64,000 nt of DNA, taken from assembly GCF_964188315.1 (NCBI RefSeq), contig NC_135666.1:25544001-25608000 (forward strand), given 5' to 3'. The DNA comes from Podarcis muralis (Eukaryota). Every line of letters begins with the position of its first letter. Within the stretch, counting starts at the first letter, position 1. This document shows positions 20,037-47,567 of this stretch, in pieces. Under the pieces are notes generated by a model that saw only the letters and a list, made by a program, of their open reading frames with translations, had not been told where the DNA came from and did no database searches. The translations under genes and the position numbers were made by a program.

Positions 20037-20278
20037 CAGTGGTACCTCGGGTTACAGACGCTTCAGGTTACATACGCTTCAGGTTACAGACTCTGCTAAC
20101 CCAGAAATAGTACCTTGGGTTAAGAACTTTGCTTCAGGGTGAGAATAGAAATAGCGCAGCAGCGGTGCAGCGGCAGCAGGAGGCCCCATTAGCTAAAGTG
20201 GTGTTTCAGGTTAAGAACAGTTTCAGGTTAAGAATGGACCTCCGGAATGAATTAAGTACTTAACCCGAGGTACCACTG
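20037..20278 (-). mobile_element. Tc1/mariner-type MITE, copy 2 (inverted relative to copy 1)
   Basis: TIR cagtggtacctcggg / cccgaggtaccactg; TA TSDs. Confidence 0.9.
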
Positions 20279-27168: not shown

Positions 27169-27632
27169 GTGAGTAGCAACACATTGTTGGTGGAAACAAC
27201 ATGTGTTTCTATGCATCAGGCAACAAAATGATGCCCTGGAAGAAGACCTAACTATCCCTTGACTTTCTGGGTTCCTCCAAATTTGTAAAAACAAACAAGA
27301 CACCAACCAATGAAAAACCTCACCCATTTTCGGAACCACTGCTTAGAGAACAATTTTAACTAGGGCCAAGGGGTAATCCGTGTAACCTGTATGGGCATCT
27401 GTAGTCTAAGGATGCTATCCAACTAATGCATCCCATCAGACAGTGCAAAGATATGCACTTGCCCAATAGAACTTCTCCCTTTTCCTCCTTGTATGAATGC
27501 CCTGTGGTCTTCCTGCAAATCTGCTCCATAAGGCTGGGGGAACCCCTGGAACAGATTTAGGGGGCATGTGAGAGAAGAGAGGGAGAAGTTCCATTGCTCA
27601 AACAGAAATCCTTGCACTGATGGAGCCCATTA

Positions 27633-29021
27633 CAGTGGTACCCCGCAAGACGAATGCCTCGCAAGACGGAAAACCCGCAAGACGAAAGGGTTTTCTGTTT
27701 CGGAGGCGCTTCGCAAGACGAATTTCCCTATGGGCTTGCTTCGCAAGACGAAAGCCCATAGGGAAATCTCCGGGGACCTGTTTTAAATTGCTGGCGGTCG
27801 GGAGCAAAGACTTTCGCCCACAGCCGGCCTTCAGAAGAGGTCCTGGACCTCTTCTGAAGGCCGGCGGGGGGCAAAAGTCTTTGCTCCCCCCCGCCTGCCT
27901 TCCCGGGACAGCGGAGACTTCTCCGCTGCCCCGGGCGATCTTAAAATGCTGGCGGGCGGGAGCGAAGCGTTCGCTGCCGACCCCCAGCATTTTAAAATCT
28001 CCCCGGGACAGCAGAGAAGTCCCGCCCTGCTCCAGATGGCCGCGCAAAGCTGCCTGCAGTCGCGGGACTGCAGGCAGATCTGCGCCACCATCCCGAGCGG
28101 GGCGCTAAGTCCCGCCCCGCTCGGGATGGCGGCGCAGAGCTGTCTGCTGTCCCGGGATCAGCGCAGCTCTGCGCGGCCATCGGGAGCCGGGGGCGAAGCC
28201 CGCCCCGCTCCAGATGGCCGCGCAAAGCTGCCTGCAGTCGCGGGATTGCAGGCAGATCTGCGCCACCATCCCGAGCGGGGTGCTAAGTCCCACCCCGCTC
28301 GGGATGGCGGCGCAGAGCTGTCTGCCGTCCCGGGATCAGCGCAGCTCTGCGCGGCCATCGGGAGCCGGGGGCGAAGCCCGCCCCGCTCCAGATGGCCGCG
28401 CAAAGCTGCCTGCAGTCGCGGGATTGCAGGCAGATCTGCGCCACCATCCCGAGCGGGGTGCTAAGTCCCGCCCCGCTCTGGATGCCAGCGCAGAGCTGTC
28501 TGCCGTCCCGGGACTGCAGGCAGATCTGTGCCGCCATCCTGAGCGGGGCGCTAAGTCCCGCCCCGCTCTGGATGCCAGCGCAGAGCTGTCTGCCGTCCCG
28601 GGACTGCAGGCAGATCTGTGCCGCCATCCCGAGCGGGGCGCTAAGTCCCGCCCCGCTCTGGATGGCGGTGCAGATCTGCCTGCCGTCCCGGGATCAGCGA
28701 AGCGTTCGCTGCCGACCCCCAGCATTTTAAAATCTCCCCGTGTCCCGGTGAGATTTTAAAATGCTGGGGGTCGGCAGCGAAGCCCTTGTTCCCCCCCAGC
28801 CCCCCCCCCAGCCTTCAGAAGCCCTTGTCCCCCCCCCCCCAGCCTTCAGAAGAGGTCGGGGGAGAGACTGTCCCTGGACCTGGTCTGAAGGCGGTTTCCC
28901 TTGGAACGCATTAATTGATTTTCAATGCATTCCTATGGGAAACCGTGCATCGCAAGACGAAAAACTCGCAAGAAGAAAAAACTTGCGGAACGAATTAATT
29001 TCGTCTTGCGAGGCACCACTG
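27633..29021. mobile_element. Non-autonomous Tc1/mariner-type DNA transposon (1389 bp) with an internal palindromic array
   Basis: TIR cagtggtaccccgcaagacgaa vs reverse complement cagtggtgcctcgcaagacgaa (20/22); TA TSDs at 27631-27632 and 29022-29023; subterminal cgcaagacg repeats; no transposase ORF. Confidence 0.9.
28021..28697. repeat. GC/CpG-rich tandem array of 88/90-bp self-complementary units
   Basis: Unit starts at 28021, 28111, 28199, 28289, 28377, 28467, 28557 and 28647 (spacing 90, 88, 90, 88, 90, 90, 90). Confidence 0.95.
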
Positions 29022-31437
29022 TAATTGGATATCACCCTATGAACGCTTGTTGCGAAGCAACCCCTTCTGTGATCACCATGGCTTAGCTACAGGTAAGTAA
29101 GCTTAGGATTTCATCCTTGGTTTCAGAGTTAACTGTGACATATATCACACACAAAGCACTCCTCCTGTTTTCAGAAATAATTGTCATAAAACGCTCAGGA
29201 TTAGCCCAATGCCAAATAAACAGTTCAAGGCCATCTCTTTTCATTGTGTATATCCCACTGACAATGAAGCAAAATGACCCTGAATGCAATGCCGTGTTTT
29301 TAACATTTGCATGATTCAAGGTTCAGTGCCAGAATGGGATTCTAGCAAGCAGTTTGCAAAACAATTTCCCCTCTGCTTCTCCTTTGCCACTGAAATGGTG
29401 GAATCCGGAATGGAGAAATCCATGTGCACACATTCAGCATATATCTGTGGTCATTTTTTTAGTGAGTTCTTGTAATTTTTTATCATCATCGTCACATTTC
29501 CAGGGTATACATTTTTAGTAAATTTTATGCATCCTATAAAGCATTATTCTTGTTTGCTCTTTTTAAAAACTTCCTGTACATTAATCTCATTTGGGTCTCA
29601 TAAGAAAGCCCCTATGAACACTTTAGTTTTATTACATATGAATTTACTTTGCAAAGATCACATAGTGCAATATTCTCAAAGACAAACTATCCAATGCCCC
29701 TGGGATTGAGCTAATGGAAGTGTCTAGTCCAGTATAAAATATTCTAGGCAGGGAAGAAACTAAACCCTCATCCTTTGGATGTGAGAGTGGCTTCTGAGTC
29801 AAAGAAAATAGCTAGGCCCCAGCTACCTCACAGACCTTGACAATGGGGGAAAAATTTTTGTTTAAGACTTAAACAAACGTTGGGCTGATAACAAGTATGT
29901 GAACCTCATTTTTTTGTACCAGGTAGTATGTTCCGCTCCTTGCCATAGCCTTGAGAAATAGCTATTTGCCTCAAAGCATGAAATCAAGTATCATTGTTTG
30001 AAATGAGTCATCCTGAGAGCTACTGGCTAGACGGAATACCATTGAAGGATGACGATGTTAATTTACTTGTGAAAGAGGCCTTCATAACTCACTCAAATTG
30101 GCTGCTGCCACCTGACCTTTGACTCCTGACATTTGTGAAGTATGACTAGTAGCTTTTTACTGGCTTTTTGGCCCATGCAAAACACATTCTAGCCATGAAC
30201 ATTCTGTTTCCTTCTAGCTTCATCCTTCACAAAAGACAAAAGGGGGAAGAAGAGAGAAGCTTTTCTCTCCTTGCGTACCATAAGCACTGCTTTTTTAAAA
30301 CCTCTTGTGCTTTTGTCTCTTATTTGTCAACAGTCCAAAGGGCAGCGCTCGATAGACGCCACCCTACCGTAGCTGAAAATGAGGAATGGGAGCCTGGGCA
30401 TTCATTGCCTGTTAAAGAATTTGCTTTGCAATGCTAGTGGTTTCTGCGATGACTAGTCCTTTAGAAACTTGGACAGCAGTGGGTTTGGGCGATTTGTCAA
30501 GAGAGAGCCCAGAGTGGTTGACTGCCAAATGGAAGACTATAAAACAGAGCACAATGGTGGTCACAGATGGTTTTGCAGAGAGCTGCGAACCAGAGGACAA
30601 AGACTGAGCCACCTCTCAGACTCCCAATGGCATCCATTATGGAGAATAAAAAAAAGAATGTACTGTGGCTTCTGCCGCTGCAAATTCTTCAGTAGATCTT
30701 AAAGCGGGCATTAACTTTCATCCTGAGGGAGCCATGCAGCAGTTACAAAGCCACTCAATCACACTCCACCTCCAAAAAGTTGGGATCTCCTACTGAATCC
30801 AACTGAAGGATTTAATGCATTGCAAAGCCTTTCCCATGCACCAGTGAAGTAATCAGGGACACAGGAAACAACCATCACTGTGGCTCAAATAATTAAAGAA
30901 ACCAACGGTCTCCTCACATATGAGCCTCTGTGGTCATCAGGAGATGGCCTCTTTTGAACTGGGGCAGCCTCTCTGTGGAACTCTGTCTCAGGAGATCCAG
31001 TGAAAGCATTTTGCCACCTACCCGATGGCATTGTTGTTTGGGCAGGCCTTCAACCTCCAGGCTAAGTGCTCACTTTCTGCTGGTTCTTTTTTTAAAAAAA
31101 TATATGTAACTTTTATGAATTGTTGTGTTTCATCTGCATCTTCTGTTGTACTTACCATTTTACTTTACTTTACCCATACTAGTATTTGTTGTATTAAATG
31201 GAGTACGCTGGTTTTTAACCATATAACAAATTATATATATACTAGAATGTATACCTCCATGTTGCCCTCCAGATATTGTTGGACTCCAACTCTGAAGGAG
31301 CAAATGAAAGGGATATTTGACCAGGTATCAACAAAATAGACCAGCGCTTACTCCATTTTAGTGAAACCCTAGACCCAAAGTATGTATGGCAAAGAGGTTC
31401 TTCAGCAGTAATGATAATCTTTTGCCTTTCACTGCAG

Positions 31438-47326: not shown

Positions 47327-47567
47327 CAGTGGTACCTCTAGTTATGAACTTAATTCGTTCCGGAGGTCCGTTCTCAACCTGAAACTGTTCTTAACTAGAG
47401 GTGTGCTTTCGCTAATGGGAACTCTTGCTGCTGCTGCTCTGCCGGCACATGATTTCTCTTCTCATCCTGGGGCAAAGTTCTCAACTCAAGGTAACTCTTC
47501 CAGGTTAGCGGAGTTTGTAACCTGAAGCGTTTGTAACCTGAGGTGTTTGTAACTCGTGGTACCACTG
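47327..47567 (+). mobile_element. Tc1/mariner-type MITE, copy 3, just downstream of the CUBN poly(A) signal
   Basis: TIR cagtggtacctc / gtggtaccactg; TA TSDs. Confidence 0.88.

What the first reader, a model, noticed from the sequence alone, without database searches (positions are those of the whole stretch)
27633..29021. DNA transposon carrying a higher-order array of palindromic CpG-rich units
Seen: a TA-flanked element with 22-bp TIRs holds 7.5 units of 88/90 bp. Each unit is an arm plus its reverse complement (cgccccgctcgggatggcggcgcagatctgcctgcagtc / gactgcaggcagatctgcgccaccatcccgagcggggcg). The order is A-B-A-B-A-C-C-half: a 178-bp dimer followed by a switch to a 90-bp monomer. CpG is dense although the host intron is CpG-poor. 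Inference: a young, probably length-polymorphic satellite seed spread by a transposon. It could form cruciforms in DNA and multi-hairpin dsRNA in CUBN pre-mRNA (ADAR or Dicer substrate), or act as a portable CpG island. Units contain YY1-like GATGGCGG and partial CTCF-like CCAGATGGC cores; binding is unverified.
Basis: partly seen in the sequence, partly recalled or inferred. Interest (0 to 1): 0.7.

Follow-up and report, generated by a model that had tools for sequence, protein, structure and literature searches.

The report
Tigger transposon breeding varied hairpin arrays
This is a young, gene-less jumping-DNA copy in an intron of a likely cubilin gene, absent from some other individuals; its family, likely still active, carries at least seven different hairpin repeat arrays between near-identical ends, likely built by copying errors, with no sign of a host function.

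Summary
In detail: a 1,389-bp TA-flanked element with 22-bp TIRs (20/22) and 7.6 imperfect hairpin units in the order A-B-A-B-A-C-C-half. It is a non-autonomous Tigger (pogo) element. The genome holds partner copies with an intact 566-aa DD36D transposase, and two other sequencing runs show the empty site with a single TA, so the insertion is polymorphic. About 108 copies carry this 90-bp array, with 0.6-25 units and 94 different arm orders among 98 copies, only ~0.5% diverged. One copy shows a 230-bp fold-back duplication. The autonomous element has its own variable, non-hairpin array. Verdict: a new variant of the known tandem-repeat-carrying MITE (miDNA4, DTC84), valuable as a time series of array birth.

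The parts
27633..29021 (+). Non-autonomous Tigger (pogo) element, 90-bp-array subfamily, same orientation as the transposase gene of the autonomous partner
   Evidence: first 121 bp 84% and last 119 bp 92% identical to the autonomous element
27631..27632 (.). Left TA target-site copy
   Evidence: the empty site has one TA
29022..29023 (.). Right TA target-site copy
27633..27654 (+). Left 22-bp terminal inverted repeat
29000..29021 (-). Right 22-bp terminal inverted repeat (20/22 match)
27639..27763 (+). Subterminal CGCAAGACG repeats shared with the autonomous element; likely transposase-binding sites (inferred)
27790..28016 (.). Left interior: mosaic of GC-rich hairpin modules (54-bp arms at 89%, 38-bp arms at 84%), shared and reshuffled among sister subfamilies
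   Evidence: (z -14)
28017..28462 (+). Array 5' part: A-B-A-B-A (arm string aX bY aX bY aX), the 178-bp dimer
28463..28642 (+). Array 3' part: two C units (cZ cZ), 90 bp each
28643..28695 (+). Terminal half unit (arm d), the last arm in 86 of 98 copies
28696..28999 (.). Right interior: hairpin modules, then about 120 bp shared with the autonomous element
   Evidence: z -10
27169..31437 (+). Host intron (inferred GT..AG ends) between CUB-domain exons of a cubilin-like gene

Best explanation
This is a recently inserted, non-coding copy of a Tigger (pogo) DNA transposon whose hairpin-rich interior likely grows by copying errors, with no sign of a host function. Shown: Tigger ends and TA duplication, an intact transposase partner, an empty site in other individuals, variable arrays, seven further hairpin units on near-identical ends, and a germline CpG-decay signature. 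Inferred mechanism in three steps. (1) The Tigger transposase moves any sequence that keeps about 120 bp of each end, so the interior is free to change. (2) Strand switching during DNA synthesis at GC-rich stems copies back on the opposite strand and makes new inverted repeats. (3) In-register slippage or unequal exchange then duplicates and deletes whole units, about 1-3 events per copy, giving ordered arrays with fixed first and last units. Copies stay inside the transposon, are methylated and are likely to decay.
For: Ends and TSD: 76 of 80 sampled left ends have both TIRs and TA/TA; 99 of 100 complete 90-bp-type copies have TA/TA. Partner: 19 of 20 hand-picked DDE_1 loci have both TIRs and a 562-566-aa ORF, 94.7-100% identical, with CENP-B_N + HTH_Tnp_Tc5 + DDE_1 and best hits to lacertid TIGD1-like proteins. 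Polymorphism: one contig each in X8 and X12 joins the two flanks with a 2-base overlap. Arrays: 94 arm strings among 98 copies, polar order. Other units: 70 of 76 complete copies carry arrays of 3 or more units, of 60/76, 90, 118, 109, 100 or 59 bp; all fold at z -4.9 to -11; ends differ by about 0.004-0.02 per site. Six units match hairpin modules of array-free relatives at E 1e-8 to 1e-35. Fold-back caught: L242 copies back about 230 bp on the other strand; L055 has a loop inversion. In-place slippage: 6 of 83 private non-CpG variants are duplicated within an array, which a simple simulation matches together with the length spread. Methylation proxy.
Against: Hairpins are not needed for array variation: the autonomous element has a 145-bp AT-rich array of 0-10 units that does not fold (z about 0). 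Clear strand-switch events are rare: 1 large event in 98 copies of this subfamily. The 90-bp and 118-bp units match array-free relatives only weakly (E 1e-4 and 0.005), so capture from elsewhere is not excluded. Partner-arm similarity fits the observed neighbours for Y-a and X-b but not for Z-c or b-Y. Transposition, methylation and slippage were not observed directly.
Confidence: 0.75

Rival explanations
1. Arrays are remodelled mainly at transposition: after cut-out, gap repair from the sister chromatid stalls on hairpins and re-primes out of register, so each new copy is born with a new array.
For: All 11 pairs with no substitution in about 707 bp of ends differ by 5-16 unit edits, and array distance does not rise with divergence (rho -0.03; -0.21 after length correction). 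Only 6 of 83 private variants are duplicated. The autonomous element's array also varies.
Against: Copy ages are close to a single burst (overdispersion p 0.08), so the age test is weak. In-place slippage of 1-3 events per copy reproduces both the 7% and the length SD of 5.1. L255 shows an 8-unit block duplicated with several variants in register.
Confidence: 0.3
2. The array acts on the host, as an unmethylated CpG island, a factor-binding platform or a double-stranded RNA source in cubilin pre-mRNA.
For: The array is 71.5% GC with CpG o/e 0.85. As RNA it folds to -565 kcal/mol with 81% of bases paired and a 24-bp longest uninterrupted helix. It lies inside an intron.
Against: CpG transitions are 7.5-fold (5.8-9.8) raised in arrays across the subfamily. 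The insertion is absent from haplotypes in two other runs. No full YY1 or CTCF motif (recalled patterns) and no Rfam match. The CpG richness is explained by youth.
Confidence: 0.07
3. The 90-bp unit was captured from another genomic sequence and then amplified, as proposed for miDNA4.
For: Units A and B have no match and unit C one weak match (E 1.4e-4) among the array-free relatives sampled. The array starts at the loop of an interior hairpin module.
Against: Unit cores are accounted for by elements. Six other units of the family derive from its own modules. Only 7 array-free hairpin-mosaic copies were sampled out of thousands of family members.
Confidence: 0.2
4. The array is an assembly artefact.
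For: One sampled copy runs into an assembly gap (L045), and unit counts at single loci were not checked against reads.
Against: 98 loci share the same arm types with shared diagnostic variants, polar order, a CpG-biased mutation spectrum and private variants.
Confidence: 0.02

Closest known systems
Tigger family of pogo transposons (PMC7386202 and PMC9219625, passages read)
   Same: TA duplication, short TIRs, partner with CENP-B_N + HTH_Tnp_Tc5 + DDE_1 and DD36D spacing; length 2.5-4.3 kb and 566 aa, close to the squamate ranges given (2,336-3,988 bp, 532-618 aa).
   Different: The passages say current Tigger activity in vertebrates tends to be low; here at least 19 intact near-identical copies exist. 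'tandem' occurs 0 times in the main text of PMC9219625.
miDNA4 of Xenopus tropicalis (known to me only through review passages in PMC12628747 and PMC9659126)
   Same: Tc1/mariner-type MITE in a vertebrate with an internal repeat present as one unit or a variable array.
   Different: One repeat, proposed to be captured and later released as satellite. Here there are at least eight unit types on near-identical ends, most derived from the element's own hairpins, and no released satellite was found for the three units counted.
DTC84 MITE of the clam Donax trunculus (PMC3879986, passages read)
   Same: Ordered variant units with a fixed terminal variant, variable copy number, nearly every element unique, a palindrome in each unit, ends acting as a cassette.
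   Different: AA target duplication, a 12-nt palindrome in a 156-bp unit and 1-5 units, against whole-unit hairpins, up to 25 units, dimer and trimer higher-order repeats and an identified intact transposase here.
Xmix/Xstir (Xenopus), Angel MITE, DINE-1/Helentron central repeats (review passages, PMC12628747 and PMC3879986)
   Same: Tandem repeats arising from MITE interiors, with stem-loop models proposed; related elements with unrelated central repeats.
   Different: Other superfamilies; in DINE-1 the repeats differ between species, whereas here they differ among copies in one genome whose ends are about 99% identical.

Membership tests
Tigger (pogo) non-autonomous element | TA target-site duplication | tested here: met
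   TA on both sides; empty site with one TA; 99 of 100 copies
Tigger (pogo) non-autonomous element | Short TIRs (40 bp or less) shared with an autonomous element | tested here: met
   22-bp TIRs; terminal 120 bp 84% and 92% identical to the partner
Tigger (pogo) non-autonomous element | Partner transposase with CENP-B_N + HTH_Tnp_Tc5 + DDE_1 and DD29-36D triad | tested here: met
   D190/D307/D344 = DD36D by recalled motifs; top hits TIGD1-like. No transposase tree was built, so Tigger versus pogoR rests on hit names and spacing.
Tigger (pogo) non-autonomous element | Mobilised by that transposase | not testable with these tools
   inferred from shared ends and polymorphism
Tandem-repeat-carrying MITE (miDNA4/DTC84 type) | Conserved ends with an internal array of variable unit number | tested here: met
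   0.6-25.4 units, median 9.6, in 98 copies
Tandem-repeat-carrying MITE (miDNA4/DTC84 type) | Miniature size (about 400 bp, PMC9659126) | tested here: not met
   760-2,982 bp in this subfamily; the family's short 250-500-bp members meet it
Satellite DNA derived from a transposon | Long arrays free of the element's ends | tested here: not met
   90-bp core 665 vs 108 junctions; 60-bp core 2,789 vs about 2,400 expected; 118-bp core 581 vs about 710 expected. The assembly may omit collapsed heterochromatin.
CpG island | High GC and CpG o/e over more than 500 bp | tested here: met
   GC 0.715, o/e 0.85, 677 bp; thresholds recalled
CpG island | Unmethylated in the germline | tested here: not met
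   subfamily-level proxy: CpG transition excess 5.5-11.9-fold; no direct methylation data for this copy
An already curated Dfam/Repbase family | Listed consensus with this internal array | not testable with these tools
   no repeat library available; paper searches found no description

The most novel reading that the evidence does not exclude
An active vertebrate Tigger family works as a repeat factory: repair of its own excision gaps folds back on hairpins, invents new palindromic units and amplifies them, so that at least eight different arrays and their higher-order repeats arose while the ends changed by about 1%. With an intact transposase at hand, the birth of tandem and higher-order repeats could be reproduced in cells.
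Probability: 0.3. Interest if true: 0.72.

Novelty: new variant of a known kind. Interest (0 to 1): 0.45.

Why it matters
How tandem and higher-order repeats are born inside transposons is mostly argued from old, static sequences. Here one lizard genome holds the likely series together: short MITEs, hairpin mosaics, eight array types, hundreds of copies under 1% diverged, a fold-back event, polymorphic insertions and an intact transposase. That makes the stem-loop, slippage and gap-repair models testable by population long reads and a cell assay. For the cubilin-like gene itself it is most likely a neutral intronic insertion.

Tried and rejected
RNA: no RNA holder was listed. In raw-read runs X23 and X21 (12% and 6% read) the unique parts of the stretch, including two host exons, had next to no reads, so they say nothing on editing or small RNA at this locus; reads on the element's right end run into many other flanks. 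Runs X1 and X3 were uninformative on the empty site, because their contigs stop 13-24 bases short of it. Using copy age to separate in-place from transposition-coupled change failed for lack of age spread. The end tree (250 columns, bootstrap not settled) shows clustering by array type but cannot order origins. Rfam gave 0 matches. Two look-ups of earlier findings returned nothing. Paper searches for a lacertid description: Podarcis + Tigger gave 0 papers; searches listed nothing on this family by title or abstract start. In the supplements of PMC9219625 (one held file) Podarcis, Lacerta and Zootoca occur 0 times, but species there are abbreviated. bioRxiv supplements and most subscription papers, including the original miDNA4 and Xstir papers, were not seen. 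The origin of the 90-bp unit was not searched genome-wide at low identity.

Full report
Observation. The element at 27633-29021 is real: TA on both sides, 22-bp TIRs matching at 20 of 22, CpG o/e 0.85 in the array against 0.27 elsewhere in the window. TRF gives a 90-bp period x 7.6 and a 178-bp period x 3.8. The order is A-B-A-B-A-C-C-half. Each unit is an imperfect hairpin: forward arms differ from the reverse complement of the X arm by 4-7 of 39 bases, and units fold at z -5.6 to -7.5. It lies in an intron (inferred ends 27169-31437) among + strand CUB-domain exons whose best solved match is cubilin.

Family. A 38-base left-end pattern matches 425 times exactly, and a variant left end 5,461 times. 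A DDE_1 search gave 141 matches; most of the 30 loci returned carried this element's right end. Of 20 loci that I picked for their 571-575-codon open frames, 19 have both TIRs, TA flanks and a 562-566-aa ORF, at 94.7-100% identity. The protein has CENP-B_N, HTH_Tnp_Tc5 and DDE_1 domains, a DD36D spacing by recalled motifs, and top hits to TIGD1-like proteins of Lacerta (88%) and Podarcis (90-96% over about 60% of its length). This fits Tigger as defined in PMC7386202 (passages) and a lacertid host. The finding shares only about 120 bp at each end with this partner (84% and 92%).

Recent insertion. In run X12 a 285-base contig lies on 27464-27632 and on 29022-29139; in X8 a 767-base contig lies on 27532-27632 and on 29022-29689. 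Each pair overlaps by 2 bases, one TA. I matched the contigs across the two calls by length, depth and strand. So 2 of 4 DNA runs laid hold an empty site; the other 2 were uninformative.

The 90-bp subfamily. The left junction occurs 108 times and the unit core 665 times, 6.2 per junction against 6.5 inside sampled elements, so the assembly leaves no room for a free satellite. I recovered 100 complete copies (further ones were interrupted or incomplete) and parsed 98: arrays of 53-2,275 bp, 94 distinct arm strings. The order is polar: A and B units lie 5' (mean position 0.3), C units 3' (0.7), and arm d ends 86 of 98. Dimers and trimers recur as higher-order repeats. Copies differ from their masters by 0.46% on average, this copy by 0.22%. 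CpG transitions exceed non-CpG G/C transitions 11.9-fold in left ends, 5.5-fold in right ends and 7.5-fold in arrays, the usual mark of germline methylation (established knowledge). The CpG richness therefore reflects youth.

I fetched 80 of the first 82 listed left ends; the 2 skipped were 90-bp-type copies already held. 76 were complete: 35 with a 60-bp array (mostly with a 76-bp one), 19 of the 90-bp type, 12 with 118 bp, 2 with 109 bp, one each with 100, 59 and a 60/119-bp dimer, and 5 short, deleted or with only 76/173-bp duplications. All these units fold at z -4.9 to -11, while the ends differ by only 1-3 of 250 bases between array types. Of 40 copies with the commoner left end, 28 are 250-500-bp MITEs, 7 are 720-880-bp mosaics of GC-rich hairpins, 1 has a 49-bp array, 2 are nested or mis-delimited and 2 lacked a right end. 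The 49-, 59-, 60-, 76-, 100- and 109-bp units match modules of those mosaics; the 90- and 118-bp units match only weakly. The 60-bp and 118-bp cores also count near what elements alone predict.

Mechanism. Shown: copy L242 switches strand at a stem, copies back about 230 bp to the array junction and returns; L055 has a loop inversion. 6 of 83 private non-CpG variants occur in more than one unit of the same array, and L255 has an 8-unit block duplication. Inferred: strand switching makes hairpins, slippage amplifies them, and the transposase spreads them. A simulation with 1-3 events per copy of 2.5-4 units gives 8-14% duplicated variants and a length SD of 4.2-5.2, against 7% and 5.1 observed, so in-place change suffices. 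Change at transposition is not excluded: all 11 pairs with identical ends differ by 5-16 unit edits. Against a necessary role for hairpins, the autonomous element has a 145-bp AT-rich array of 0-10 units that does not fold.

Host function. The RNA would be 81% paired with a 24-bp longest clean helix, so editing is possible where the gene is expressed, but no data bear on it. Full YY1 and CTCF motifs are absent and Rfam has no match.

Known and new. Tandem-repeat-carrying MITEs are known: DTC84 has ordered, palindrome-bearing units (PMC3879986, passages), and miDNA4 and Xstir are vertebrate cases (review passages). I found no description of this lacertid family in six searches, but Dfam and Repbase could not be checked. 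What differs is the number of unrelated hairpin arrays on near-identical ends, whole-unit hairpins with higher-order structure, and an intact partner. Verdict: new variant of a known kind, interest 0.45.

Noticed in passing
L141-L160 (e.g. L143, G000:C1:107253500-107260600): The autonomous Tigger has at least 19 intact, near-identical copies with a 145-bp AT-rich array of 0-10 units upstream of the ORF; a candidate active vertebrate transposase.
   Followed up: partly
L020 and L250: Two independent copies are interrupted by unrelated sequence at the same place, right after CTAA in the loop between two arms.
   Followed up: no
L033 and L037: An LTR-retrotransposon-like and a LINE-like element with long ORFs sit inside these very young copies, so those families are also recently active.
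   Followed up: no
L185 (G000:C1:10605311-10609311): A short MITE holds a nested element with other inverted ends and a CpG-island-like interior.
   Followed up: no
L083 and L101 (likely also L037): A branch of the 60-bp subfamily has part of its 76-bp array region inverted relative to the others.
   Followed up: partly
window 49900-50600 and 52798: A CpG-rich promoter-like region with CCAAT boxes and a GT donor, followed by an exon that fits a recalled RSU1 N-terminal pattern; consistent with recalled CUBN-RSU1 gene order.
   Followed up: partly
window 13320, 20037-20278, 47327-47567: Three small TA-flanked MITEs with related CAGTGGTAC ends but other subterminal repeats (GGTTACAGACGCTTCA type), likely another Tigger-like family.
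   Followed up: no
window 27441-27619: A weak inverted repeat (40-bp arms, 78%) just left of the insertion site, with repeat-level depth in the runs laid.
   Followed up: no
L155 and L156 (G000:C1:46.64 and 46.69 Mb): Two autonomous copies identical with the same flanks 44 kb apart: segmental or assembly duplication.
   Followed up: no
runs X23 and X21: The family's terminal sequence is abundant in RNA reads that continue into many different flanks.
   Followed up: no
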